The notes under the pieces were generated by a model. The model saw nothing but the letters and a program-made list of their open reading frames with translations. It was not told the DNA's origin and did not search any database. Of a stretch of DNA of 64,000 nt, positions 13,850 through 63,683 are shown in pieces. The DNA lies in assembly GCA_943355025.1 (NCBI GenBank), contig CALRDW010000001.1, positions 60,015-124,014 of the forward strand, written 5' to 3'. Position 1 is the first letter of the stretch. Every line of letters starts with the position of its first letter. Source of the stretch: Candidatus Magasanikiibacteriota bacterium (GTDB lineage: Bacteria; Patescibacteriota; Patescibacteriia; Magasanikbacterales; 2-02-FULL-50-9b). A program made the position numbers and the translations under genes.

Positions 13850-15850
13850 GTGATTAAAAAAAATCGTTCTCGTGCCCTTGTTTCGCTTTCAATATTTTTG
13901 TTTGTATTGTTTCCACTCACTGCAGCGGCTCGTACTTCGAACGATCCACAGATTGCTGATTTAACAGGGCCGTTTGATCAAATACATGTGCAAGACGCGT
14001 GGGATTTTACGCAAGGTTCTCCTGACGTTGTTGTTGCCGTGATTGATACGGGTGTTGATATTACAAATCCAGATCTTGTAGGAAATGTGTGGGTTAATCC
14101 CCATGATACAGCTGACGGCACAGACAATGATGGTGACGGTAATATTGATGATATTCACGGCTGGAATTTTATTGATAATAATAGCAACGTACGTCCGACA
14201 TTTACAGCGGCTGCAACGCGTATCGGACTTAATCACGGAACGATTGTTGCAGGTATTATTGGCGCGACCGGAAATAATTTGACCGGTGCAAGCGGGGTTA
14301 ATTGGCACGTTAAAATCATGGCGCTCAAAATTTTGGATGAGCATGGCGACGGCGATTCGGATCTTGCAGTTAAAGCAATTGATTACGCAATCAAGCACAA
14401 TGCAAACATTATTAATTTGAGTTTTGTTGGACCAACACCAAGTTTAAATTTTATTCAAGCAATTAGGCGTGCATATCGTGCAGGTATTTTGGTTGTTGCA
14501 GCGGGCGGGAACGCGGCCGAGAACTCGAAGGGGACGGATCTCAATGTTGTCCCACAGTATCCTGTTTGTTTTGATGATCCGCTTAAAGAAGAAAATTGGG
14601 TGCTTGGCGTAGCAGCCTTGACTGAAAATGGATTGCTCGCGCCATTCTCAAATTTTGGGAGCAAATGTATTGATCTTGCAGCCCCAGGAACGCATATTCC
14701 CGCGACCATGTTTTATGATCCGCAAAATGGATACCCGGATATTTTTGGTGGTAGTTGGTCAGGAACTTCGATCGCAGCGCCGTTTGTAACTGGTGTTGCT
14801 GCGCTCGTAAAAACGGTACAACCAACATGGGGACCTGATCAGTTGATTCGTAATTTGATAGAAACCACTGATTCGATTCCAGGCAATGATACACACGCGG
14901 CAGGACGCGGCTCGCTTAATGCTCTGCGCGCTGTGCGAAATGCGGCACAAGGTGGTGATGGAGGCTTGCCAACGGGTGTTTTTGTCTCAACTTCTGTAAG
15001 TAAGGGCGCAACGCTCGCAAAAATATTTGACTCATCATTTGTTGAACTCAAGTCATTTGAGATTTCACACATTGCCCCGAAACAATCTGTTTCGCTGGTA
15101 ACGGGAGATATTGACGGAAGCGGTGTTTCAAACATTATCGCTGCGGTTCCAGACAAAAAAGGCACGCTCATTCGTGTTTTTCAGCGCGACGGCAAATTAC
15201 TTCGCGATGTTCGACCGTTCGGTAAATCGGAACAAGGTGCGGTTCAAATTACAACACGCGACTTAGATCTCGATGGTATTGAGGAAATTATTGCTGCAAG
15301 CCCGTGGACGCACCAAGTCGTTATCATGAACAGCACGGGAAAGATCACAGGTAAAATTCAGATTCAGAATGGCAAGTTGCCGATACTTTTAACAACATTG
15401 CGTGAAGGAAGTTCTACATTTATTGTAACGGCAGTGCCAGACAAGAAAGTTGCGCACGTGTTTGTGTGGGATGTTATCGGCTCGTTTATTCGTTCCTTTG
15501 ATGTGCTTGTAACAGGTACGGGGGTTACGCTTGGTACCGCAGATTACTTAGGAGTCGGACATGAGGAATTGTTTCTGTCAGGCATTGCTGGTAACACATT
15601 GACAACACAATTTTATACGCTTGACGGAAGTCCTGACAACACACGAACGGCACAAATAAAAAACGGAAAAATTTTTGGCTTCTCCTTTGCGTTCGTTAAA
15701 GATCTTGAGGGACCAACACTTGTTGTTGCTGTTCAGCAAGGAAAAAATTATAGTTTTCAAACGGCAGATACACACGGAGCGGTTCAGCCAGTGATGACGA
15801 GCGTTAATAAAACAACCGTGCAAGGGCAAAATCTGTATTTTGGAAGATAG
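13850..15850 (+). CDS. Subtilisin-like serine protease (peptidase S8) with C-terminal FG-GAP/beta-propeller-like repeats
   Basis: Catalytic triad motifs VAVIDTGVD (Asp), HGTIVAGIIGA (His), GTSIAAPFVTGVAAL (Ser). Signal peptide present. C-terminal repeats GDIDGSG... and DLDLDG.... GTG start. Confidence 0.85.
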   Translation: MIKKNRSRALVSLSIFLFVLFPLTAAARTSNDPQIADLTGPFDQIHVQDAWDFTQGSPDVVVAVIDTGVDITNPDLVGNVWVNPHDTADGTDNDGDGNIDDIHGWNFIDNNSNVRPTFTAAATRIGLNHGTIVAGIIGATGNNLTGASGVNWHVKIMALKILDEHGDGDSDLAVKAIDYAIKHNANIINLSFVGPTPSLNFIQAIRRAYRAGILVVAAGGNAAENSKGTDLNVVPQYPVCFDDPLKEENWVLGVAALTENGLLAPFSNFGSKCIDLAAPGTHIPATMFYDPQNGYPDIFGGSWSGTSIAAPFVTGVAALVKTVQPTWGPDQLIRNLIETTDSIPGNDTHAAGRGSLNALRAVRNAAQGGDGGLPTGVFVSTSVSKGATLAKIFDSSFVELKSFEISHIAPKQSVSLVTGDIDGSGVSNIIAAVPDKKGTLIRVFQRDGKLLRDVRPFGKSEQGAVQITTRDLDLDGIEEIIAASPWTHQVVIMNSTGKITGKIQIQNGKLPILLTTLREGSSTFIVTAVPDKKVAHVFVWDVIGSFIRSFDVLVTGTGVTLGTADYLGVGHEELFLSGIAGNTLTTQFYTLDGSPDNTRTAQIKNGKIFGFSFAFVKDLEGPTLVVAVQQGKNYSFQTADTHGAVQPVMTSVNKTTVQGQNLYFGR

Positions 15851-19089: not shown

Positions 19090-19854
19090 ATGGAAATGCA
19101 AGAACAGCAGAGCTCGTGGATGAATTCACTCCCACCGAAAGTACTTTTTATCGGTGGTTTGGTCGGCGGCATCATGACACTTTGCACAATCGGTTTTTTT
19201 ATTCTTCTCGGCATGATGGTTAGTGGCAAGTCAATTGGATCGCTTGCAAAAGCACCAGTGGCAAATGTTGCAGCACCAACACCTGACGCCGCCGCACCAA
19301 CACCTGCGGGAAAACCAGCGGCGGTTACAGCTGATGATCACATTTTGGGCAACAAGAACGCAAAAGTTACGCTTATTGAATATTCCGATTTTCAGTGCCC
19401 ATTTTGCAGTCGTTTTGCGCCAGTTGCGCTTCAACTTGTTAATGATTCCCAAGGAAAAGTTGCGCTTGTTTACCGCAATTTTCCGCTTGAGTCAATTCAT
19501 CCAATGGCATTTAAGTCGGCTGTTGCAGCCGAGTGTGTCGCATCACTGCGTGGGAACGATGTGTACTGGAAGTACCACACAGATTTATTTAACAATCAGG
19601 GCGCGCTCAGCGATCAGATGCTCACGAACACAGCGGTTAAGCTTGGCGTGAACAAAGCTCAGTTTGAGACATGTATCAACTCGAAGAAATTTGATGCAAA
19701 AATTAAAGCCACAGAAGCAGAAGGTGAATCAATCGGAGTTCAAGGAACGCCAGCAACGTTTGTTGTTGCGGCTGACGGATCATCGGAGCTTATTCCAGGC
19801 GCACTTCCGCTTGAACAGGCAAAAGTTTATGTTGATCGCGCACTTGCAAAATAA
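19090..19854 (+). CDS. DsbA-like thiol:disulfide oxidoreductase (membrane-anchored)
   Basis: N-terminal TM helix; thioredoxin-fold active site FQCPFC. Confidence 0.8.
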   Translation: MEMQEQQSSWMNSLPPKVLFIGGLVGGIMTLCTIGFFILLGMMVSGKSIGSLAKAPVANVAAPTPDAAAPTPAGKPAAVTADDHILGNKNAKVTLIEYSDFQCPFCSRFAPVALQLVNDSQGKVALVYRNFPLESIHPMAFKSAVAAECVASLRGNDVYWKYHTDLFNNQGALSDQMLTNTAVKLGVNKAQFETCINSKKFDAKIKATEAEGESIGVQGTPATFVVAADGSSELIPGALPLEQAKVYVDRALAK

Positions 19855-36087: not shown

Positions 36088-37053
36088 ATGGCAATCTCAG
36101 GCCGCGTGATTCGCGGACGCATCAAATCAGTGAAGAATACGAAAAAAATCACTAAAGCCATGGAACTTGTTTCCGCGGCTAAAATGCGTCGTGCAGTCGC
36201 GGCCGCGCTTCAGTCGCGCACATACGCGCGCTATGCGTGGGAGCTTCTTACTCGTCTTGAAGCAACGGGGCGCGCGCTTGAAAAGTCAGAACATCCGCTT
36301 CTTGCAGTGCGGCCTGTTAAAAAAATTCTTGTTGTTGCAATCACGTCAAACCGCGGTCTTGCTGGTGCGTTTAATTCGAATGTAATCAAGTTGGTAGCAC
36401 AGCAAATTCGTCATCCCGAACAGATTGCGCGCAACAGAGTTGGCAAGCGGTGGATTGAACCGGCGAACGACCATCCTGAGATGGAGTTTGTTATTGTTGG
36501 CAAGCGCGGCGAAACAGCACTCCGCCGGATCACGGATAAAATTGTGGCGAGTTTTGTTGATGTGCCGGATGTTCCTAAATTAAGTGACGTGACAGCACTT
36601 ATCACGCTCGCAATTGGTGGGTATGAGCGCGGCGAGTATGATAAAGTTGTGCTTGCGTATACAGATTTTGTGTCGGCGCTTGTGCAAAAACCAAAGGTAC
36701 GTCAACTTCTACCAATATCAACGGTTGATATTGAGAAGACGTTATTTCCCGAAGGCGTTGTTGCCGATCCTGTCGGACATGAAGAGTGGAGCGAGGTATT
36801 TGTTGAATTTGAGCCATCAATTACGGAAATTATTGGGGCTGCTGTGACGCGGCTGATTGAATCACAAGTGTATCAAGCGGTTCTTGAATCGTCTGCATCC
36901 GAGCATTCTGCACGCATGATGTCCATGCGTCAGGCAACGGATGCAGCGACGGACATGATCGATACACTGACACTTGTGTTTAATCAGGCGCGCCAGGCAA
37001 GTATTACGAAAGAAATTTCGGAAATTAGTGCTGGTAAAGCTGCGCTCGAGTAG
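36088..37053 (+). CDS. atpG: ATP synthase F1 gamma subunit
   Basis: N-terminal IKSVKNTKKITKAMELVSAAKMRRA and the C-terminal helix. Confidence 0.9.
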   Translation: MAISGRVIRGRIKSVKNTKKITKAMELVSAAKMRRAVAAALQSRTYARYAWELLTRLEATGRALEKSEHPLLAVRPVKKILVVAITSNRGLAGAFNSNVIKLVAQQIRHPEQIARNRVGKRWIEPANDHPEMEFVIVGKRGETALRRITDKIVASFVDVPDVPKLSDVTALITLAIGGYERGEYDKVVLAYTDFVSALVQKPKVRQLLPISTVDIEKTLFPEGVVADPVGHEEWSEVFVEFEPSITEIIGAAVTRLIESQVYQAVLESSASEHSARMMSMRQATDAATDMIDTLTLVFNQARQASITKEISEISAGKAALE

Positions 37054-37150: not shown

Positions 37151-37780
37151 TTACCGCGTCGGCAGGTACACGCGATTAAACGAAGTAATTCCGTCGTTTG
37201 GCCACGTGTAGATCTGACCGGGCATGGCACCGAGTGGCGTGTAGTTAATCGTTTGGGTGTATGGTCCCCAGCGACGAGTTACACTCGTGACAGCGCCATT
37301 ATGATTCATATCAACCACGACAGCGCCCATCGGGAGCACGCCGCGAGTTGATCCGAACCGAGAGTACGCGCCATACGGAACCTGGTATGAACCATACGAA
37401 CCGCCTGAGTAATTCCAGTTGTTGGCCATGCCAAAGGGCACGCGATACATCTGGCCGCCGCAGTTCATGTCCGTCGTGATGGGTTTGCCCACCGCGTCGA
37501 ATCCGACTGTGATCCGCTTACACACAACATTCGTATTCGTGCCGCCAGGGCCCGAACGCGTTTCCTGTGCATACTCGACGTTGCCGTCTTCGTCCCGCTC
37601 GACGTACGAGTCGCGCCGATTGGCCTCGGTCACGGTCGTTGACCGACTGACCGGAGTTTGGATGGTTGATTCCGAGTAAGCGATTCGGCCCGCATCGTCG
37701 CGAACGACGTACGAGTCATAGCAACCAGCTGTTGAGGCCGCGAGAGCGCAGAGAATAACGAGTTGTGAGAAAATGCTCAT
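37151..37780 (-). CDS. Hypothetical secreted/lipoprotein-like protein (Gly/Tyr/Ser-rich), GC-rich, inserted inside the atp operon on the opposite strand
   Basis: Signal peptide MSIFSQLVILCALAASTAGC (lipobox-like TAGC). AGGAG RBS before the ATG at 37780. Higher GC than flanks. The longer ORF to 37972 would overlap the atpD start. Confidence 0.5.
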   Translation of the reverse strand: MSIFSQLVILCALAASTAGCYDSYVVRDDAGRIAYSESTIQTPVSRSTTVTEANRRDSYVERDEDGNVEYAQETRSGPGGTNTNVVCKRITVGFDAVGKPITTDMNCGGQMYRVPFGMANNWNYSGGSYGSYQVPYGAYSRFGSTRGVLPMGAVVVDMNHNGAVTSVTRRWGPYTQTINYTPLGAMPGQIYTWPNDGITSFNRVYLPTR

Positions 37781-37880
37781 GATGAGCTCCTTGTAGATGC
37801 GCTGGCCCGTTGGCCACGCGCGGTATGAAGAGCAAAGGGCTTTACCCCGGGATTGAGCTGAACTCAGCCAAAAGCCGGGA

Positions 37881-39323
<1,443 letters not shown>

Positions 39324-56119: not shown

Positions 56120-58912
56120 ATGTCTTTCCTCACAAAACTGTTTGGCGATCCGAATAAGAAAGTAATTGATGTGCTCCGGCCAGTGGTTTCGCGCATAAAC
56201 GCGTATGAAGCTGATTTTAAGCTTCTTTCAAAAGAAGAGCTATGCGAAAAGACCATCTTTCTGAGAACGCGGCTCGCCCAGGGTGAATCGCTCGACGACG
56301 TTTTGCCAGAGGCGTTCGCTGCAGTGCGCGAGGCAGCAAGCCGAACCATTAATCAGCGCCACTACGATGTCCAGCTCATGGGCGGCATCGTTTTGCACCG
56401 AGGACAAATCGCAGAAATGCGCACGGGTGAAGGTAAAACGTTAACTTCGACGCTTGCAGTGTACCTTCAGGCGCTTTCGGGTCGCGGCGTGCACGTTGTG
56501 ACAGTTAATGACTATCTTGCAAAGCGTGATGCGGTTTGGATGGGTCAGATTTTCCATGCCCTTGGCATGAGTGTCGGTATTATTCAACAACAAATGACGT
56601 CATTTGCGTATGACCCGTCGTTTAAGGTGCGCCAGACAGTAACAGCGGATGGCCTCACGGATCAGGGGACAGAAAAAGACGTGGAGCGCGACACACTCGG
56701 CTCGTTTCATGTTGAAATGGACTATCTTCGGCCGTGCGAGCGAAAAGCTGCGTATGCGGCTGACATCACCTACGGAACAAACAATGAGTTTGGGTTTGAT
56801 TATTTGCGCGACAACATGGCGTATTCGAAGGCTGAGATGGTTCAGCGCGATTTAGCATTTGCCGTTATTGATGAAGTTGATTCAATATTGATTGATGAAG
56901 CTCGCACGCCGCTTATTATCAGCGCGCCAGCCGAAGAGTCGAGTGATACGTATGCAAAATGTGCGCAGGTTGTTCGTGCGCTCGCAGCGAACGACCACTA
57001 TACTCTTGACGAAAAACAACGGACCGTTTCTTTGACTGACAGCGGTATCGCAAAAGTTGAGGGATTGCTCGGCGTTGAAAATTTATATGTTGATGGCGGA
57101 CATCGCCTCGTGCACCACGTCGACGCGGCATTGCGCGCGCAAGTTTTATTTACGCGCGACAAAGATTATGTAGTTAAGGATGGTGAAATTCTTATCGTTG
57201 ACGAATTTACGGGCCGCCTCATGATTGGGCGTCGATACTCAGAAGGTTTGCACCAGGCGATTGAAGCAAAGGAAGATGTTACGGTTCAACGCGAAAGTCA
57301 GACGCTTGCGACTGTTACGTTTCAAAATTATTTCCGCTTGTACGATCGCATCGCGGGTATGACAGGTACTGCGGTAACGGAAGCTGAGGAGTTTGGGAAA
57401 ATTTATACGCTTGAAGTTGTTGTTATTCCGCCAAATAAAATTTCTCAGCGTACAGATTTGGGCGATCAAATTTACGCGACAGAGGAGGGAAAGTTTAGCG
57501 CGGTTGTTGCGGAAATTAAAAAGCGACACGAGCGCGGACAGCCGGTTTTGCTTGGTACGATTTCAATTGAGAAAAATGAGCGGTTGTCGCTGCTTCTTGA
57601 GCGCGAAGGTGTACCACATCAAATTTTAAATGCGAAAAATCACGAAAAAGAAGGCGAAATTATCGCGCAGGCAGGACGGCGTGGTGCTGTAACGCTCGCG
57701 ACAAATATGGCGGGTCGCGGTGTTGATATTTTGCTTGGTGGTAATCCAATTACTCCGGAGCAACAGGAATTCGTCCGCTCAGTCGGGGGTTTGTTCGTAC
57801 TTGGAACAGAGCGTCATGAATCGCGCCGCATTGATAATCAGCTTCGTGGTCGCGCGGGACGACAAGGCGATCCGGGTGAAACACAATTTTTTATCTCGAC
57901 TGAGGACGATCTCATGCGCATCTTCGGCTCTGATCGCATGCGAAATATGATGCGCCGATTGCAGGTGCCGGACGATATGCCGATTGAGCATCCGCTTATT
58001 TCTCGCTCGCTCGAAACTGCACAGAAAAAAGTTGAAGGCCATAACTTTGACATTCGAAAACATTTGCTCGAATATGATGATGTATTAAATCGTCACCGCG
58101 AAGTTATTTACAAGAAACGTCGCGAGATTTTGGACGCAAGTGAAGAGGTTGAAGGTCTTGAAAAAATTCTTGAGATGCTCCGCGTAATGTTTGACGAGGA
58201 GATCGAGCATTTAATTTTTCAATACACAGAAGTTGCAACCGAGATCGAAACTGAAACAACTGCTGCGCGACGAGAGCTGCTTAGCACGTTGGTCCGACTA
58301 CTTCGAATCGATGAATCACGAATTAATACGGCACTTGCACCACTCGATGTTGAGGAGGCTGTTGAACTTCTTGCGGTTCGGACTGAGACAATTGAAGCGC
58401 TCAGCGAACTCGCACACGAGCAGCTTGAAACAACAATCGCTAGTTTTACAGACAAGCAGATTGTACTCGGCGCATTGAGCAATGTTATGCTTCGTGCGAT
58501 TGATGCGCTGTGGATCGAGCATTTGGAAGCGCTCAGTTATCTGCGAACGGGTATAGGGCTTCGTGGGTATGGACAGCGCGACCCGCTTGTTGAATATAAG
58601 AAGGAAAGTTATCGATTGTTTCAAGAGCTCATGGCATTTATTACGAAGGATGTTGTATATATTGTACTTGCTGTCGGTCAGGCCGCGAAGTTTGCGCCAT
58701 CATTATTGTCGCGTGAAGGACTTTCTCTCTCGGGTGCTGCAAAAACTCAGGATGCGCAGGAGCGACAGGATGAAAAAATTCATGACGGGGAAATTGTTGA
58801 TGGTATGTCGGGGGTTTCCGAGGAAATGAATTTGGGAGGGCCAAAGGTCGGGCGCAATGATGCGTGTCCGTGCGGAAGTGGCAAAAAATATAAAAAATGT
58901 CATGGGGCATAA
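56120..58912 (+). CDS. secA: Preprotein translocase ATPase SecA
   Basis: DEAD-motor motifs MRTGEGKTL and [11 protein letters not shown], and C-terminal zinc finger [14 protein letters not shown]. Confidence 0.95.
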
Positions 58913-59050: not shown

Positions 59051-59437
59051 ATGCCGCTAACACTCAAGGTCGTTGTCTCAGCACTCATCATCAAAGATGA
59101 TACAATTTTGTTGGTTCAGAATAAAAAAAATCCGAAAGTCGGCTGCTACGGTTTTCCAGGCGGCGTTGTCAAAGGAGCAAATCCACTTGAGTCGCTCATA
59201 AAGCAGGTGCTGGATGATACGAGTTGCAAATTCGAGGGCGCATTTTTCACCTACAATTATCGTGAAGAAACATTTCCTGTTGCAACACTCTTTTTTGTGG
59301 GCACAGTCAAAGGAAAACCACATAAAGCTGGAGCAAACATTTCTGATGTTACGTTTGTTGCAATTGAAGAGGCACGCAAAATGGATTTGGCACATGATCA
59401 TAATTTAATTTTAGAACAGTACGTTGCAACTCGATAA
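59051..59437 (+). CDS. Nudix hydrolase
   Basis: Nudix-fold N-terminus (GFPGG) with a divergent Nudix box. The family call is moderately supported. Confidence 0.6.
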   Translation: MPLTLKVVVSALIIKDDTILLVQNKKNPKVGCYGFPGGVVKGANPLESLIKQVLDDTSCKFEGAFFTYNYREETFPVATLFFVGTVKGKPHKAGANISDVTFVAIEEARKMDLAHDHNLILEQYVATR

Positions 59438-59456
59438 TCTTCATAAGAATTGATTT

Positions 59457-59855
59457 ATGAAAATAGTAATTTGTGGCAGCATGAAATTTTCCTCAGTAAT
59501 GCTCGAGACACAAAAAAAACTAGAGACGCTCGGCCACGAAGTTACGATTCCGAAGGGTATGGAACGATTTCTTAATACCAGTCTTGAAATTGAGACCGCG
59601 GATATAAAAATCGAGAATGATTATATTCGACACTATCACGGCAAAATTGTAGAGGCCGATGCAATTCTTGTTTTGAATTTAACAAAGAATGGCGTTGAAA
59701 ATTATATTGGCGGCAATACTTTGATGGAATTGGGTTTCGCGCATGTAATGAATAAAAAAATATTTTTGTTCAACCCGATTCCTGAAATGAGTTACTCAGA
59801 TGAGATAATTGCGGTGCAACCAATTATAATTAATGGAGATTTAGAAAAAATATGA
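59457..59855 (+). CDS. Nucleoside 2-deoxyribosyltransferase-fold protein (DNPH1/Rcl-like dNMP N-glycosidase candidate)
   Basis: N-terminal KIVICGSMKF and C-terminal LMELGFAHVMNKKIFLF match the conserved pattern of DNPH1/Rcl-type hydrolases. Confidence 0.5.
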   Translation: MKIVICGSMKFSSVMLETQKKLETLGHEVTIPKGMERFLNTSLEIETADIKIENDYIRHYHGKIVEADAILVLNLTKNGVENYIGGNTLMELGFAHVMNKKIFLFNPIPEMSYSDEIIAVQPIIINGDLEKI

Positions 59856-60223
59856 CACCAAGCGAATATATTCAGAGCGCGATGCGCACAGAAAAAAAAG
59901 AGTACGGATTTGAGGCGCTGGGGAAAGTTACGCCACGCATTGAGCACGCAGTCATGGGTCTTGTGACAGAAGCGGGCGAGTGCATGGATGCGCTCAAGAA
60001 GTCGAAAATGTATGGTAAGGAACTCGACACCGTTAATTTAATTGAAGAGGCGGGTGACATCATGTGGTATCTCGCGCTACTTTCTGATGAGCTCGGAGTA
60101 TCATTTGAACAGCTCTGGGAAAAAAATATCGCAAAACTTCGTGTTCGGTTTCCCGAAAAATACACTGAAGAGCTTGTTTCGACTCGCAATCTGGGCGCCG
60201 AACGAGCGGTTCTCGAAGCCTAG
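59852..60223 (+). CDS. MazG-like nucleoside triphosphate pyrophosphohydrolase (single-domain, house-cleaning type)
   Basis: EAGECMD...EEAGDIMWYLALL metal-binding helices of the all-alpha NTP-PPase fold. Start overlaps the previous gene (ATGA). Confidence 0.7.
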   Translation: MTPSEYIQSAMRTEKKEYGFEALGKVTPRIEHAVMGLVTEAGECMDALKKSKMYGKELDTVNLIEEAGDIMWYLALLSDELGVSFEQLWEKNIAKLRVRFPEKYTEELVSTRNLGAERAVLEA

Positions 60224-60313: not shown

Positions 60314-62320
60314 ATGAAATTACGCACAACAAAAATCGAGATTTCTCATAGCGCAGTGCGAAATGGCCTTATAGCCATTGTTGTTCTTGCTCTGCTTGCG
60401 ATTGGATATAGTTTTCCAGTTACGTATAATAAAACGTCGGATGCACTCCACAGCAAGGCCGGTTTTTCAATCGGGCACGTCAATTTTCAGCCATTTAGAT
60501 TGGGCCTTGATTTGCGTGGTGGTGCGTACCTTATGTACGACGTCAATGTTACGGGTGTAGATCCGTCCGAACAGGCAGCAGCGGTTGAGGGCGCACGTGA
60601 TGTAATTGAGCGCCGCGTAAATGCGTTCGGTGTTGGTGAGCCGCTTGTACAGACAACAAAATCCAGCGGTGTGTGGCGTGTTTTGGTTGAGCTTCCTGAT
60701 GTGCATGAAGTTCAAAAAGCGATTGACATGATTGGTGCAACGCCAATTTTAGAATTTCGCGACAAGAATGGTGGCACAGTTAAACTTGAAGACACGCAGC
60801 AACAGCAAATCGATGAAACAAATAAACAAGCAAAGATCGCGGCGTTAGCAACATCTGACAAAATTAAAAAAGGTGTAAAATTTGAAGACGAACTCGCAAA
60901 AAACAAGGGAGGCGACATCGCAGCAGTAACTACAGAGAGCAATCCGACAGTTTTTGCATGGGCAAAAGCACACAAAGAGGGTGACGTAACGCGAGATCCA
61001 ATTGAAGCAAAGGATGGTTATTATATTGTACAACGCGGCGCGACAAAGCTTGACCCTGAAATCTCGGCGCGACACATTTTAATTTGTTGGAATGGTGCGA
61101 CGCAGTGTTCGTCGACGCTTACAAAAGATGAAGCGCTTCAAAAAGTGAAGGATTTGCTTTTTAAGGCAACGCCACAAAATTTTGCTGACCTTGCGAAGGT
61201 AAACTCAACTGAGCCGGGCGCAGCAACGTCGGGTGGTGATCTTGGGTGGTTTGGGCATGGTTCAATGGTGAAGGCATTTGAAGATGCTGTGTTTGCACTC
61301 AAAAAAGGCGGAATTACTACGACGCCTGTTGAAACTGAGTTCGGATACCACATTATTTTTAAGACGGATGAGCGGATGAAGACTTCGTATGCACTCAAGG
61401 GAATGGTGTTTAAGAAAATTACGGCGGACGACTTGTTCGCGAATACGGGAGATTGGAAGCCAACAGGTCTTTCAGGGAAACAGCTCGAGCGAGCGACCGT
61501 AGAGTTTGATCCAAATACGGGTGAGCCAACTGTTAACCTCGCGTTTAATAACGAGGGCAAACAATTGTTTGCAGACATTACACGCCGTGATGTTAACCAA
61601 CAAGTTGCGATTTTTCTCGATGGTCAACCAATCAGTGAGCCGGTTGTTCGTCAGCCAATTCTTGATGGTCGGGCAGTTATCTCGGGAAATTTTACACTTA
61701 CAGATGCAAAAAAATTGGTTGAGCGTCTGAATGCTGGTGCATTGCCACTACCGATCAAACTCGTCAGCCAGCAAACGGTTGGTGCAACACTGGGTGCAAA
61801 ATCATTGCACGATAGCGCGACCGCTGGCCTTATCGGTTTTGTTCTTGTGCTTATCTTCTTGACGGCGTTTTATCGAGTTCCTGGGCTGCTCGCAAGTCTT
61901 GCACTCCTCATGTATGCGGCATTCGTGCTTTCCATCTTCAAGTTTATTCCTGTGACACTTACGCTCGCGGGCATCGCCGGTTTTATTCTTTCGATGGGTA
62001 TGGCTGTAGATGCGAATGTGCTTGTGTTTGAGCGTACGCGAGAAGAACTCGCAACAGGTAAGTCACTTTCCGCGGCGCTTGAAGAAGCGTTTCCTCGCGC
62101 GTGGAATTCTATTCGCGATTCCAATGCATCGAGTCTGATTACGTGTGCAATTTTGTTCTGGTTTGGTTCAAGCATTGTTCAGGGTTTCGCACTTACGCTT
62201 GCAATTGGTATTTTTGCCAGCTTGTTTACTGCGATTACGGTTACGCGTCTGATGCTGCGTTTTATTGCGCCACTTCTCAAGGATCGTCCCGAATTGTTTA
62301 TTCCTCCAAAGCGTTCATAA
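60314..62320 (+). CDS. secD: Protein-export membrane protein SecD carrying an embedded parvulin (PpiC-type) PPIase domain
   Basis: SecD N-terminal TM plus periplasmic domain and C-terminal six-TM region (DANVLVFER). Residues about 245-350 (ARHILI...GGDLGWFGHGSMVKAFEDAVFALKKG...GYHIIF) are a parvulin rotamase domain. Confidence 0.85.
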   Translation: MKLRTTKIEISHSAVRNGLIAIVVLALLAIGYSFPVTYNKTSDALHSKAGFSIGHVNFQPFRLGLDLRGGAYLMYDVNVTGVDPSEQAAAVEGARDVIERRVNAFGVGEPLVQTTKSSGVWRVLVELPDVHEVQKAIDMIGATPILEFRDKNGGTVKLEDTQQQQIDETNKQAKIAALATSDKIKKGVKFEDELAKNKGGDIAAVTTESNPTVFAWAKAHKEGDVTRDPIEAKDGYYIVQRGATKLDPEISARHILICWNGATQCSSTLTKDEALQKVKDLLFKATPQNFADLAKVNSTEPGAATSGGDLGWFGHGSMVKAFEDAVFALKKGGITTTPVETEFGYHIIFKTDERMKTSYALKGMVFKKITADDLFANTGDWKPTGLSGKQLERATVEFDPNTGEPTVNLAFNNEGKQLFADITRRDVNQQVAIFLDGQPISEPVVRQPILDGRAVISGNFTLTDAKKLVERLNAGALPLPIKLVSQQTVGATLGAKSLHDSATAGLIGFVLVLIFLTAFYRVPGLLASLALLMYAAFVLSIFKFIPVTLTLAGIAGFILSMGMAVDANVLVFERTREELATGKSLSAALEEAFPRAWNSIRDSNASSLITCAILFWFGSSIVQGFALTLAIGIFASLFTAITVTRLMLRFIAPLLKDRPELFIPPKRS

Positions 62321-62330
62321 CGCCACGAAT

Positions 62331-63233
62331 ATGTTTTCAGTAATCAAAACACACAAAATCTGGTTCACACTTTCGACAGTGCTCTTCGCGCTTTCGATTC
62401 TTGCGGTGAGTGTGTGGCACTTCAAACTCGGTATTGATTTCACAGGCGGTTCGCTCATGGAAATTACCACGACTGCCCCTGTTTCTGATTTGTCTGTCAT
62501 CGAAAATGCTGCGGAGCCAATTCTAAAAGAGAAGCCGCATATTCAACCTATCGGTTCAAACGGATACATTATTCGTACACCATTTATTTCTGAGGCAACG
62601 CATCAGGAGGTTCTCACAGCAGTTAAAAAAATTCCAAACATTGGTGAGATTAAAGAAAGTCGGTTTGAGACAATCGGGCCAACAGTAAGTGCAGAGCTTC
62701 AGCGCAAGGCAATCTGGTCAATTATTATGGTGCTTGGTGCGATTATCATCTATGTTGCGTGGGCATTTCGTGGCGTTTCGCGACCACTTTCAGCATGGGT
62801 GTACGGCGTTGTAGCAGTTATTGCACTTTTGCACGATGTGTTTATTCCTGCCGGCGTGTTTGCAGTTCTTGGTAAGTACTATGGCTATGAAGTCGACACG
62901 CTTTTCGTAACGGCTCTGCTTACCATTCTTGGTTTTTCAGTACATGACACAATCGTTACGTTTGATCGTGTGCGTGAACATCTCAAACGAACACCAAAAG
63001 CAAATTTTTCGGAACTTGTTGATCAATCGGTGCGCGAAACATTTCGTCGTTCGATCAATACTTCAATGACAGTACTTCTTGTTCTCGTGCCTGTGCATAT
63101 CTTTGGTGGTGAATCTATTAAAGAATTTACACTTGTTCTTATTCTTGGAATCATTGTTGGTACCTATTCGTCAATATTTATTGCATGCCCACTTTTAGTT
63201 GTGTGGAATTCGCTTGCAGAGAAGCGCCGCTAG
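62331..63233 (+). CDS. secF: Protein-export membrane protein SecF
   Basis: GIDFTGGS motif, periplasmic domain and six-TM core; follows secD. ATG at 62331 within ORF 62265..63233. Confidence 0.85.
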   Translation: MFSVIKTHKIWFTLSTVLFALSILAVSVWHFKLGIDFTGGSLMEITTTAPVSDLSVIENAAEPILKEKPHIQPIGSNGYIIRTPFISEATHQEVLTAVKKIPNIGEIKESRFETIGPTVSAELQRKAIWSIIMVLGAIIIYVAWAFRGVSRPLSAWVYGVVAVIALLHDVFIPAGVFAVLGKYYGYEVDTLFVTALLTILGFSVHDTIVTFDRVREHLKRTPKANFSELVDQSVRETFRRSINTSMTVLLVLVPVHIFGGESIKEFTLVLILGIIVGTYSSIFIACPLLVVWNSLAEKRR

Positions 63234-63257: not shown

Positions 63258-63683
63258 ATGAGTGCAACTGCGTTGGTCATCACAATTTATTATTTCGTTG
63301 CGGGCCTGGGATTACTGGGTGCATTTGCAACATGGTGGATCACGCGAAAAGGCGAGGATAACATTTGGCGTTGGATTTTTTCGCTTATTGGTAGCTTGGT
63401 TTTTGTAACGGTGTACTGGATTTCGTATCTGATTGGTTCCTACGAAGCGATTCCAGTAATTTTGTTTTTTCTCGCCGCTATTTACGCGTGGTTATATATT
63501 GTATTTTCTGCACGGTCATCGTCAACACTCGACCATTTTGTGTTTGCCTCATTTGGAACAATGGTGTTTGGTATGACTATGATTGGTGGATATACAGCTG
63601 GCGCACGTGGTTGGTGGGCGATGGCGCTGCCATTTTATGTAGTGGCAACGTATAGTTGTTACTCGCTTCTAGTACCAGACTGA
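63258..63683 (+). CDS. Hypothetical multi-TM membrane protein
   Basis: 141 aa, four hydrophobic helices. Confidence 0.4.
   Translation: MSATALVITIYYFVAGLGLLGAFATWWITRKGEDNIWRWIFSLIGSLVFVTVYWISYLIGSYEAIPVILFFLAAIYAWLYIVFSARSSSTLDHFVFASFGTMVFGMTMIGGYTAGARGWWAMALPFYVVATYSCYSLLVPD

What the first reader, a model, noticed from the sequence alone, without database searches (positions are those of the whole stretch)
61040..61370. SecD with an inserted parvulin (PpiC) peptidyl-prolyl isomerase domain
The secD ORF (60314..62320, 668 aa) has a roughly 105-residue block with clear parvulin signatures (HILI..., GGDLGWFGHGSMVKAFEDAVFAL, TEFGYHIIF). The block sits between the N-terminal periplasmic SecD region and the C-terminal TM bundle. 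A foldase fused to a translocon-associated subunit would couple export directly to prolyl isomerisation; elsewhere separate proteins such as PpiD, PrsA or SurA fill that role. This is a Rosetta-stone fusion. I cannot say from memory how widely it is already annotated.
Basis: partly seen in the sequence, partly recalled or inferred. Interest (0 to 1): 0.55.

Follow-up and report, generated by a model that had tools for sequence, protein, structure and literature searches.

The report
SecD translocon subunit with built-in parvulin foldase
The protein-export helper SecD of this small-genome (Patescibacteria) bacterium carries two prolyl-isomerase-type domains, one apparently active and one degenerate, spliced into its outward-facing domain; the design is common in this bacterial group but apparently undescribed, and it suggests that export and folding are physically coupled.

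Summary
The ORF at 60314..62320 is one uninterrupted 668-aa SecD. Residues 247-352 (nt 61052..61369) match Pfam Rotamase/Rotamase_3 at E about 1e-25.

1. The insert spans residues ~153-370 and holds two parvulin units.
2. Upstream unit A is degenerate and both catalytic His are lost. It appears circularly permuted, with canonical unit B nested between its beta4 and beta1 strands.
3. The insert sits in the linker between the P1 base and an intact P1 head. It does not abut the TM bundle.

It is not a chimera. All 120 listed homologues share the architecture. Half of the 150 best 50%-identity representatives carry at least one parvulin at this site. Forms include one, two or more units, in SecD and in SecDF. 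Named hosts are Magasanikbacteria, Falkowbacteria, Kuenenbacteria, Uhrbacteria, Peregrinibacteria and Gracilibacteria.

Unit B keeps His254, His346 and Glu/Asp300.

Best reading: a PrsA/PpiD-like foldase hard-wired to SecD, acting on chains leaving SecYEG. This is inferred, not shown. Databases call these proteins plain "SecD", and I found no paper describing the fusion.

Verdict: new variant of a known kind, moderate interest.

The parts
60314..62320 (+). secD gene, 668 aa, stop TAA at 62318-62320
   Evidence: The ORF is uninterrupted. TIGR01129 secD scores 360.7 bits against a cutoff of 244.4. Foldseek finds SecDF structures 5xan, 5yhf and 3aqp at E 1e-20 to 1e-22. The stop codon was read directly.
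60347..60412 (+). TM1 of SecD (residues ~12-33). It places everything up to TM2 on the extracytoplasmic side.
   Evidence: The AF2 model has a helix at 12-33, and the sequence NGLIAIVVLALLAIGYSF is hydrophobic. The topology follows from established SecD architecture.
60491..60769 (+). P1 base subdomain, N-terminal part (residues 60-152). It ends with the strand PILEF.
   Evidence: Pfam SecD_1st matches residues 92-152 at 55.4 bits. AF2 places strands and helices at E70-77, H84-103, E111-128, H133-141 and E146-150.
60782..61048 (+). Parvulin unit A, main segment (residues ~157-245): alpha1 to beta4 of a degenerate, circularly permuted parvulin. The catalytic His is replaced (Tyr237), and about 8 aa covering the 'SEDxxSK' motif are deleted in this clade.
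   Evidence: Pfam Rotamase scores 22.7 bits (E 2e-4) here and 53-60 bits in relatives P0074 and P0019, with the match starting at profile position ~8-10, so beta1 is missing. The alignment is shown. The unit A HMM cross-hits unit B at 24.3 bits. Unit A is closest to the single permuted units (31.6% identity).
61052..61369 (+). Parvulin unit B (residues 247-352): canonical-order, apparently catalytic PpiC-type domain.
   Evidence: Pfam Rotamase_3 91.8 bits and Rotamase 88.7 bits, profile 1-94 of 97. Best PDB sequence matches are Cbf2/PEB4 3rfw (4e-22), PrsA 6xd8 and SurA P2. Conservation across 61 sequences: His254 and His346 60/61, Glu/Asp300 61/61, Leu310 59/61, Met318 53/61, Phe322 61/61, Cys258 and Cys265 61/61. 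pLDDT is 91-97.
61376..61414 (+). Strand after unit B (residues ~355-367). It is inferred to be the displaced beta1 strand that completes unit A, with the His position occupied by Gly363 (Arg in most relatives).
   Evidence: AF2 DSSP shows continuous strands E235-257 and E344-367. The register i+j=600 pairs H254 with H346 and Y237 with G363. In single-unit relatives this strand reads '[SA]SHIL[IF]K' after 'GYHII', and the P0141 model has a beta4-turn-beta1 hairpin at E222-234/E237-248. The re-permuted Pfam test was only weakly supportive.
61466..61747 (+). P1 head subdomain (residues 385-478), intact
   Evidence: Pfam SecDF_P1_head scores 94.2 bits over profile positions 20-113 of 114. Insert-less relatives start at a similar profile position (15-19).
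61754..62278 (+). C-terminal TM bundle of SecD (residues 481-655), including the invariant Asp566 in the 'MAVDANVLVFER' motif
   Evidence: Pfam SecD_SecF_C matches residues 481-645. D566, A567, N568, F572, E573 and R574 are invariant in 61 sequences. AF2 places helices between 495 and 655. Equating Asp566 with the proton-coupling Asp of T. thermophilus and E. coli SecD is from my own knowledge, not tested here.
62331..63233 (+). secF, whose ATG lies 10 nt after the secD stop codon
   Evidence: Pfam SecD_SecF_C 197.3 bits and Sec_GG 26.2 bits. The start codon was read directly.
56120..58912 (+). secA (930 aa), 1.4 kb upstream on the same strand (context)
   Evidence: Pfam SecA_DEAD 409 bits, plus SecA_PP_bind, SecA_SW and SEC-C.

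Best explanation
This is the SecD subunit of a Patescibacteria (Magasanikbacteria-type) Sec translocon. A two-unit parvulin module is spliced into the linker between the P1 base and the P1 head of its extracytoplasmic domain.

Anatomy (shown by sequence and model):
- Order along the protein: TM1, P1 base, unit A (alpha1 to beta4 of a degenerate parvulin), unit B (a complete canonical parvulin), one further strand, the intact P1 head, then the TM bundle. secF follows.
- Unit A lacks both catalytic histidines. It corresponds to the single, circularly permuted parvulin found at the same site in related lineages.
- Unit B is nested between unit A's beta4 and displaced beta1. Two long continuous strands tie the two domains into one rigid body.

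Mechanism (inferred):
- As a secretory chain leaves SecYEG it is captured by the mobile P1 domain of SecDF, which is thought to be driven by the proton-motive force.
- The same polypeptide presents an intact parvulin active site (His254, Glu300, His346, and hydrophobic pocket residues Leu310, Met318, Phe322) next to the capture site.
- Xaa-Pro bonds would therefore be isomerised, and the chain held, as it emerges.
- In other bacteria this job falls to separate, translocon-associated proteins: PrsA, PpiD/YfgM, SurA and the Mycoplasma Mdp dome.
- Degenerate unit A most likely serves as a non-catalytic scaffold or binding surface, like SurA P1 or the PpiD parvulin domain.
- In this clade an invariant Cys258/Cys265 pair in the beta1-alpha1 loop of unit B probably forms a disulfide.
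For: The fusion is not an artefact:
- All 120 listed homologues (49-71% identity) have the same Pfam architecture.
- 75 of the 150 best 50%-identity representatives carry at least one parvulin between P1 base and P1 head.
- Named lineages include Magasanikbacteria, Falkowbacteria, Kuenenbacteria, Buchananbacteria, Uhrbacteria, Komeilibacteria, the Parcubacteria group, Peregrinibacteria/Peribacteraceae and Gracilibacteria.

The insert is a clean module. P0141 (562 aa) and P0202 (446 aa) are ~80% identical on both flanks and differ by a 115-aa indel at exactly this site.

Active-site positions in unit B are under purifying selection. Its best sequence matches among solved structures are extracytoplasmic parvulin proteins: Cbf2/PEB4, PrsA and SurA P2.

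The AF2 model gives pLDDT 89-97 across residues 161-370. Unit B shows parvulin secondary structure and there are long bridging strands. Foldseek also finds SurA over 227-281 aligned columns, consistent with a two-parvulin module.

The permuted topology is independently seen in single-unit relatives, by motif order (61 of 81 inserts) and in an AF2 model with a beta4-turn-beta1 hairpin.

The location is extracytoplasmic, between TM1 and TM2. The SecD TM motif containing Asp566 is invariant, and an F-type ATP synthase is encoded in the window. A membrane-anchored DsbA-like protein with a CPFC motif is also in the window.

Functional precedent for PPIase-translocon coupling: PMC9643414, PMC9987972, and bioRxiv 10.1101/2025.04.25.650208 and 10.1101/2024.09.05.611430.
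Against: - No activity or interaction data exist. Everything functional is inference.
- pTM is only 0.47, so the position of the module relative to the P1 head, SecF and SecYEG is unknown. I had no access to model coordinates.
- The residue at the Pin1-Cys113 / PrsA-Asp position is Glu in this protein and in 37 of 61 relatives. I do not know of Glu at this position in a characterised active parvulin.
- The PpiD and SurA-P1 parvulin domains show that the fold can be non-catalytic (own knowledge).
- Near-identical SecDs without the insert exist, so the module is dispensable in at least some lineages.
- The nested topology of unit A in this particular protein rests on DSSP strings and register arguments. 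The re-permutation HMM tests gave no signal for the window's own sequence.
- Whether these genomes lack a free PrsA-type foldase could not be checked. Only 64 kb was available, and it holds no other parvulin.
Confidence: 0.6

Rival explanations
1. The parvulin units are non-catalytic holdase or substrate-binding domains. They enlarge the preprotein-capturing surface of P1, as with the inactive parvulin domains of PpiD and SurA P1, and prolyl isomerisation plays no significant part.
For: Unit A has lost both histidines and, in this clade, the SEDxxSK segment. Unit B has Glu rather than Asp or Cys at the catalytic position in 37 of 61 sequences. In M. pneumoniae only one of several translocon-associated PPIC domains keeps catalytic residues.
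Against: In unit B, His254 and His346 are kept in 60 of 61 sequences, the acidic residue in 61 of 61, and the hydrophobic pocket residues are also kept. Single-unit forms keep both His motifs in 61 of 81 inserts. That pattern is what selection for catalysis predicts, and it contrasts with the free decay seen in unit A.
Confidence: 0.25
2. The insert is mainly a structural or docking module. It could be a rigid spacer that alters P1 hinge mechanics, or a contact surface for another envelope component such as the cell wall, YidC or a lipoprotein, using the parvulin fold only as a scaffold.
For: The insert sits in the base-to-head connection. The site tolerates very different loads: 0, 1, 2 or more units and low-complexity stretches. 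Two long strands make the tandem rigid.
Against: The load at this site is a parvulin in every class examined, and active-site residues are conserved. A pure spacer would not need either.
Confidence: 0.1
3. Artefact: a frameshift, assembly chimera or gene-calling error joined a separate parvulin gene to secD.
For: None found.
Against: SecD sequence lies on both sides of the insert within one frame. The same architecture appears in all 120 listed homologues of the window protein and in half of the 150 best 50%-identity representatives, from NCBI, JGI, ENA and Logan assemblies. The AF2 model is confident across the junctions.
Confidence: 0.01

Closest known systems
Canonical SecD/SecDF (e.g. Thermus thermophilus SecDF, PDB 3AQP, 5XAN, 5YHF)
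   Same: It has TM1, a P1 base, a P1 head and a C-terminal RND-like TM bundle with an invariant Asp in 'VDAN', and secF is adjacent. Foldseek E-values are 1e-20 to 1e-22, and TIGR01129 scores above its cutoff.
   Different: About 218 extra residues, forming two parvulin units, are inserted in the linker between the last base strand and the first head strand. Insert-less relatives have only ~20 residues there.
PrsA (Firmicutes lipoprotein foldase) and Cbf2/PEB4 (C. jejuni)
   Same: These are the closest solved parvulin domains by sequence (3rfw 4e-22, 6xd8 1e-17, 4wo7). They are also extracytoplasmic and act after translocation, and they share the His/acidic/His active-site pattern.
   Different: The PrsA/SurA-type N+C chaperone domain is absent (only Rotamase families hit; NCBIfam PrsA models score 59-74 bits against cutoffs of 343-361). 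The module is anchored by insertion into SecD rather than by a lipid. Glu replaces Asp at the catalytic position.
SurA (tandem parvulins P1 inactive, P2 active)
   Same: Both have two consecutive parvulin domains of which only the second keeps the catalytic residues. The NCBIfam SurA model aligns over residues 159-365, and Foldseek hits 1m5y over 227-281 columns.
   Different: SurA's domains are each in canonical order and are separated by linkers. Here unit A is circularly permuted with unit B nested inside it. There is no SurA N- or C-terminal chaperone module, and the protein is membrane-integrated.
PpiD/YfgM at SecYEG (E. coli) and the Mdp444/436/489 PrsA-like dome on SecDF-SecYEG-SecA (Mycoplasma pneumoniae)
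   Same: Parvulin-type domains are positioned at the trans side of the translocon. In Mycoplasma, substrate density contacts the one catalytically intact PPIC domain and the proteins cross-link to SecD (PMC9643414; bioRxiv 10.1101/2025.04.25.650208 and 10.1101/2024.09.05.611430).
   Different: Those are separate polypeptides that associate non-covalently. Here the parvulin is part of the SecD chain itself, at 1:1 stoichiometry, and potentially rides on the moving P1 domain.

Membership tests
SecD (protein translocase subunit) | Full-length match to the SecD equivalog model above its curated cutoff | tested here: met
   TIGR01129 scores 360.7 bits against a cutoff of 244.4, spanning residues 63-648 across the insert.
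SecD (protein translocase subunit) | P1 base, P1 head and C-terminal SecD/SecF TM bundle; fold similar to solved SecDF | tested here: met
   Pfam SecD_1st, SecDF_P1_head and SecD_SecF_C all match. Foldseek hits 5xan, 5yhf and 3aqp at E 1e-20 to 1e-22.
SecD (protein translocase subunit) | Partner secF gene adjacent | tested here: met
   secF lies at 62331..63233, with SecD_SecF_C at 197 bits and a Sec_GG motif.
SecD (protein translocase subunit) | Conserved proton-coupling Asp in the TM bundle | tested here: met
   Asp566 in 'MAVDANVLVFER' is invariant in 61 sequences. Its equivalence to T. thermophilus D340 and E. coli D519 is from my own knowledge.
SecD (protein translocase subunit) | PMF-dependent stimulation of preprotein translocation | not testable with these tools
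   This needs a biochemical or genetic assay.
Parvulin (PpiC-type PPIase), unit B, residues 247-352 | Match to Pfam Rotamase models above the gathering score over the full domain | tested here: met
   Rotamase_3 91.8 bits (cutoff 22.5) and Rotamase 88.7 bits (cutoff 21.7), profile 1-94 of 97.
Parvulin (PpiC-type PPIase), unit B, residues 247-352 | Parvulin fold (beta-alpha3-beta-alpha-beta2) | tested here: met
   AF2 DSSP gives beta1 within E235-257, H271-284, H290-297, H303-306, E309-313, H320-328, E339-341, and beta4 within E344-367. pLDDT is 91-97.
Parvulin (PpiC-type PPIase), unit B, residues 247-352 | Active-site His/His pair plus Cys or Asp, and a hydrophobic proline pocket | tested here: inconclusive
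   His254 and His346 are kept in 60 of 61 sequences, and Leu310, Met318 and Phe322 are conserved. The third catalytic position is Glu300 in this protein (Glu in 37, Asp in 24 of 61). The effect of Glu on activity is unknown.
Parvulin (PpiC-type PPIase), unit B, residues 247-352 | Peptidyl-prolyl cis-trans isomerase activity | not testable with these tools
   This needs an enzyme assay.
Parvulin fold, unit A, residues ~157-245 plus ~355-367 | Match to Rotamase models | tested here: met
   22.7 bits against a cutoff of 21.7 in this protein (marginal), and 53-60 bits (E 1e-14 to 1e-16) in relatives P0074 and P0019. The unit A HMM cross-hits unit B at 24.3 bits.
Parvulin fold, unit A, residues ~157-245 plus ~355-367 | Catalytic histidines | tested here: not met
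   The beta4 position is Tyr237 here (GYYIV), with Asn in the family consensus (GYNI). The beta1' position is Gly363 (Arg in 37 of 61).
PrsA / SurA / PpiD chaperone-foldases | N- and C-terminal SurA/trigger-factor-like chaperone domain flanking the parvulin | tested here: not met
   No SurA_N or PrsA-type chaperone family appears in the Pfam scan. NCBIfam PrsA and SurA models hit only at domain level (59-74 bits against cutoffs of 343-394).

The most novel reading that the evidence does not exclude
Patescibacteria have replaced the free, translocon-associated foldase (PrsA, PpiD or Mdp type) with a parvulin built into the moving P1 domain of SecD. Proton-driven P1 swings would then mechanically feed the emerging chain through a PPIase active site. 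The module is a previously undescribed circularly permuted parvulin. In some lineages it has a second, canonical parvulin nested in its beta4-beta1 hairpin, giving a rigid catalytic-plus-scaffold pair.
Probability: 0.3. Interest if true: 0.7.

Novelty: new variant of a known kind. Interest (0 to 1): 0.5.

Why it matters
How translocation through SecYEG is coupled to folding on the far side of the membrane is still being worked out. The evidence so far comes from transient complexes such as PpiD/YfgM, SurA with the holotranslocon, and the Mycoplasma dome.

A natural covalent SecD-parvulin fusion, recurrent across a major bacterial radiation, is independent evolutionary evidence that SecDF and parvulin foldases act on the same substrate at the same place. 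It also offers a fixed-stoichiometry, single-polypeptide system for structural and biochemical study.

Natural insert-minus relatives at ~80% identity provide ready-made controls.

The permuted and nested parvulin topology is a clear example of domain insertion exploiting the adjacent N and C termini of a fold. It also warns that order-dependent HMMs under-report such domains.

For genome annotation, these proteins are currently labelled plain "SecD" or "SecF", which hides the foldase function.

Tried and rejected
1. Frameshift or chimera. Rejected: one frame, SecD on both sides of the insert, and a recurrent architecture.
2. Parvulin replaces the P1 head. Rejected: the P1 head is intact at residues 385-478.
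3. The region upstream of the parvulin is a PrsA/SurA N-domain. Rejected: it is a second parvulin unit.
4. Re-permuted constructs scored against Pfam and against my own canonical parvulin HMM for 61 single-unit inserts. These were uninformative. The gain was +2-3 bits with the profile start moving from 8 to 2 for one relative, none for the window sequence, and a mean difference of 0.0 bits in the batch. The short beta1 strand cannot pay for the junction gap. The topology claim therefore rests on motif order and AF2 secondary structure.
5. Unit B arose by recent tandem duplication of the permuted unit. Not supported: unit B is equally distant from single units (37.4%), from Peregrinibacteria unit B (36.3%) and from free parvulins (38.7%), and only 22.0% identical to unit A. 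The origin is left open.
6. The listing of cluster members for taxonomy of the unusual classes returned no organism names.
9. Apparent non-CPR hosts ('uncultured Gammaproteobacteria', 'Binatia'). Their SecDs are 50-93% identical to CPR forms, so I treat the labels as unreliable. I could not verify this.
10. A search of the window for a second, free parvulin gene found none, but 64 kb is too little to conclude for the genome.
11. Seven literature searches found no description of the fusion or of a circularly permuted parvulin. The library does not cover most subscription journals.
Full report
**1. Observation**

The window holds an uninterrupted 668-aa ORF at 60314..62320 on the + strand. The flagged span 61040..61370 is in frame (residues 243-352) and contains the cited motifs.

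Pfam places these domains along the protein:

| Domain | Residues | Score |
|---|---|---|
| SecD_1st | 92-152 | 55.4 bits |
| Rotamase_3 | 247-352 | 91.8 bits, E 5.5e-26 |
| Rotamase | 254-349 | 88.7 bits |
| SecDF_P1_head | 385-478 | 94.2 bits |
| SecD_SecF_C | 481-645 | 47.4 bits |

NCBIfam's secD equivalog TIGR01129 scores 360.7 bits against a cutoff of 244.4 and bridges the insert. secF starts at 62331, with 10 nt between the secD stop codon and its ATG. secA lies 1.4 kb upstream.

**2. The insert is larger and more structured than reported**

The alignment of 61 family members (A1) and its display show that residues ~157-245 also resemble a parvulin. Relatives read '...F..LAK.YSED..SKNNGG.LGF...GYNI.KRG' there.
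- Scanned alone, this segment hits Pfam Rotamase at 53-60 bits (E 1e-14 to 1e-16) in two relatives.
- In the window's own protein it scores 22.7 bits against a cutoff of 21.7.
- The match always starts at profile position ~8-10, so the first strand is missing.
- An HMM of this segment cross-hits the canonical unit at 24.3 bits.

The window's clade has additionally lost about 8 residues covering the 'SEDxxSK' motif, and it has Tyr where the beta4 histidine should be. The insert (residues ~153-370) therefore holds a degenerate unit A and a canonical unit B.

**3. Topology**

The AF2 model built on A1 has mean pLDDT 85.8, and 89-97 across residues 161-370. Its pTM is 0.47, so domain-domain placement is not reliable.

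DSSP shows two unusually long, unbroken strands, 235-257 and 344-367.
- Unit B's two catalytic histidines (254 on beta1, 346 on beta4) must pair, which fixes the register at i+j=600.
- The same register pairs Tyr237 (the beta4 His position of unit A) with Gly363 (Arg in 37 of 61 relatives).
- So the strand after unit B occupies the place of unit A's missing beta1.

Related proteins with a single unit make this explicit. Their sequence runs alpha1 ... 'FGYHIIKK', then a short turn, then '[SA]SHIL[IF]K', and then the P1 head. This order holds in 61 of 81 single-unit inserts. That is a circularly permuted parvulin. An independent AF2 model of one of them (P0141, pLDDT 83.7) gives H137-163, H167-174, H178-181, E186-191, H197-206, E222-234, a turn, and E237-248, which is a beta4-beta1 hairpin.

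In the window's protein the canonical unit B sits where that hairpin turn would be. Some single-unit proteins carry long low-complexity insertions at the same spot (P0131 and P0148).

Unit A is closest in sequence to the single permuted units (31.6% identity, against 22.0% to unit B). Unit B is equidistant from single units, from Peregrinibacteria unit B and from free parvulins (36-39%). A recent duplication is therefore not supported, and the origin of unit B is open.

Caveat: the HMM tests with re-permuted constructs were essentially uninformative, and I could not inspect coordinates. The nesting in this particular protein is a well-motivated inference, not a demonstration.

**4. Where in SecD**

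P0141 (562 aa, one unit) and P0202 (446 aa, no unit) are 79-81% identical on both flanks. They differ by a clean 115-aa indel between '...LEFKEQNP.PE' and 'TD.IDFENWQPWK.TGLDG'. The module therefore sits in the ~20-residue linker between the last strand of the P1 base and the first strand of the P1 head.

The head itself is intact. Insert-less and insert-bearing proteins begin their P1_head match at the same profile positions. The parvulins decorate P1 and do not replace the head. Because P1 lies between TM1 and TM2, the module is extracytoplasmic (established SecD topology).

**5. Distribution**

All 120 listed homologues of the window protein (49-71% identity) share the architecture. Those that carry names are Candidatus Magasanikbacteria or 'Patescibacteria group', annotated simply as SecD.

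A profile search of 1.84 billion 50%-identity representatives, followed by local classification, shows that 75 of the best 150 carry at least one parvulin unit at this site:

| Class | Length |
|---|---|
| One unit | ~530-590 aa |
| Two units | ~655-705 aa |
| Larger inserts | 775-940 aa |
| SecD-SecF single-chain versions | 1015-1100 aa |

Every larger class tested by Pfam has Rotamase between SecD_1st and P1_head.

Named hosts by class:
- One-unit forms: Kuenenbacteria, Buchananbacteria, the Parcubacteria group and Komeilibacteria.
- Two-unit forms: Falkowbacteria and Uhrbacteria.
- Single-chain SecDF forms: Peregrinibacteria and Gracilibacteria.
- The ~810-830-aa class: Peribacteraceae.

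A few MAG records labelled 'uncultured Gammaproteobacteria' or 'Binatia' encode SecDs 50-93% identical to the CPR forms. I regard those labels as doubtful.

**6. Is unit B likely active?**

Its best sequence matches among solved structures are extracytoplasmic parvulin proteins: C. jejuni Cbf2/PEB4 (3rfw, 4e-22), PrsA (6xd8, 4wo7) and SurA P2.

Conservation across 61 sequences:

| Position | Residue(s) | Count |
|---|---|---|
| 254 | His | 60/61 |
| 346 | His | 60/61 |
| 300 (aligns with Pin1 Cys113 / PrsA Asp) | Glu 37, Asp 24 | 61/61 |
| 310 | Leu | 59/61 |
| 318 | Met | 53/61 |
| 322 | Phe | 61/61 |

Unit A has decayed at the same positions, and this contrast argues for selection on catalysis in unit B. 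Glu at the third position is unusual, so activity remains unproven.

Cys258 and Cys265 in the beta1-alpha1 loop are invariant in this clade (61 of 61) but absent from other lineages. The window also encodes a membrane-anchored DsbA-like protein with an intact CPFC motif (19090..19854). A disulfide is therefore plausible.

**7. Mechanism (inferred)**

SecDF is thought to capture emerging preproteins with its mobile P1 head and to use the proton-motive force to prevent backsliding (established work on T. thermophilus SecDF; solved structures recovered). The TM motif 'MAVDANVLVFER' with Asp566 is invariant here, and an F-type ATP synthase is present.

A catalytic parvulin at the base-head junction would meet the chain as it leaves SecYEG. 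It could accelerate Xaa-Pro isomerisation, while the rigidly attached degenerate unit offers extra binding surface.

This mirrors non-covalent arrangements elsewhere:
- PpiD/YfgM at SecYEG (PMC9643414).
- SurA with the holotranslocon (PMC9987972).
- The M. pneumoniae dome of PrsA-like lipoproteins. It contains SecDF, SecYEG and SecA, and substrate density contacts the single catalytically intact PPIC domain (bioRxiv 10.1101/2025.04.25.650208 and 10.1101/2024.09.05.611430).

**8. Membership**

The protein is a SecD by every testable criterion, and unit B is a parvulin domain. It is not a PrsA, SurA or PpiD orthologue, because the flanking chaperone domain that defines those proteins is absent.

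**9. Novelty**

The architecture is abundant in public sequence data, and its Pfam domains are precomputed there. It is annotated only as SecD or SecF.

Seven full-text searches found no paper describing a SecD-parvulin fusion or a circularly permuted parvulin. The library does not cover most subscription journals.

I class it as a new variant of a known kind. Interest is moderate. The fusion is a useful Rosetta-stone confirmation of a coupling that specialists already suspect, with an unexpected structural twist, but it is not a new principle.

**10. Context**

The window otherwise looks like an ordinary small-genome Patescibacteria chromosome. It encodes:
- FtsX, Mur ligases, MurB, two PBPs and MreB.
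- BipA, MetRS and a second aminoacyl-tRNA synthetase.
- Glycosyltransferases and a subtilase.
- SUF-type Fe-S assembly genes and an F-type ATP synthase.
- An AddA-like helicase-nuclease.
- SecA, a NUDIX protein and a MazG protein.

Noticed in passing
window 19090..19854 (+): A membrane-anchored DsbA-like thioredoxin-fold protein. It has an N-terminal TM segment, a Pro/Ala-rich linker and an intact CPFC motif (Pfam DSBA 75.6 bits, Thioredoxin_4 88.9 bits). This implies extracytoplasmic disulfide formation in the organism, which fits the invariant Cys258/Cys265 pair in the SecD parvulin.
   Followed up: partly
window 61085..61087 and 61106..61108 (Cys258, Cys265 of SecD): A CxxxxxxC pair in the beta1-alpha1 loop of parvulin unit B. 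It is invariant in all 61 aligned Magasanikbacteria-type sequences but absent from the Peregrinibacteria and other lineages. It may be a clade-specific disulfide staple next to the active site.
   Followed up: partly
window 37151..37972 (-): A 273-aa ORF with no Pfam match. It lies on the opposite strand in the ~880-nt gap between the ATP synthase gamma gene (36088..37053) and beta gene (37938..39323). It has a hydrophobic N-terminus and a Gly/Tyr/Asn-rich C-terminal half. This is an odd interruption of the atp operon, and it may not be a real gene.
   Followed up: no
P0202 versus P0141 (related proteins, not in the window): A natural insert-less SecD (446 aa, seen on 7 contigs from four sources) is ~80% identical to a single-parvulin SecD (562 aa) on both sides of a clean 115-aa indel. 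The module has been gained or lost recently and is not obligatory.
   Followed up: partly
P0131 and P0148 (related proteins): These single permuted parvulin inserts carry long low-complexity (Gly/Val/Glu-rich) stretches within the beta4-beta1 hairpin. That is the site where the second parvulin sits in tandem forms, so the hairpin looks like an insertion hot spot.
   Followed up: no
L002, L004, L006, L018, L020-L023, L027 (GTDB genome loci): These MAG records are titled 'uncultured Gammaproteobacteria bacterium' or 'Candidatus Binatia bacterium', yet they encode tandem-parvulin SecDs 50-93% identical to CPR forms. L004 and L006 have ~65% GC. The records are either mislabelled or mis-binned, or there are high-GC lineages outside the named CPR groups that carry the trait.
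   Followed up: partly
window 59051..60223 (+): Three small genes lie between secA and secD: a NUDIX hydrolase (59051..59437), a 132-aa ORF with no Pfam match (59457..59855), and a MazG-like pyrophosphohydrolase (59852..60223) that overlaps the previous ORF by 4 nt. This is a nucleotide-housekeeping trio embedded in the sec cluster.
   Followed up: no
window 63258..63683 (+): A 141-aa hydrophobic ORF, probably a multi-pass membrane protein, lies immediately downstream of secF. It has no Pfam match. Whether it is a conserved partner of secDF was not checked.
   Followed up: no
window 13850..15850 (+): A 666-aa subtilase (Peptidase_S8, 157 bits) follows a TPR protein. It is a likely secreted protease and so a candidate client of the Sec/foldase machinery.
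   Followed up: no
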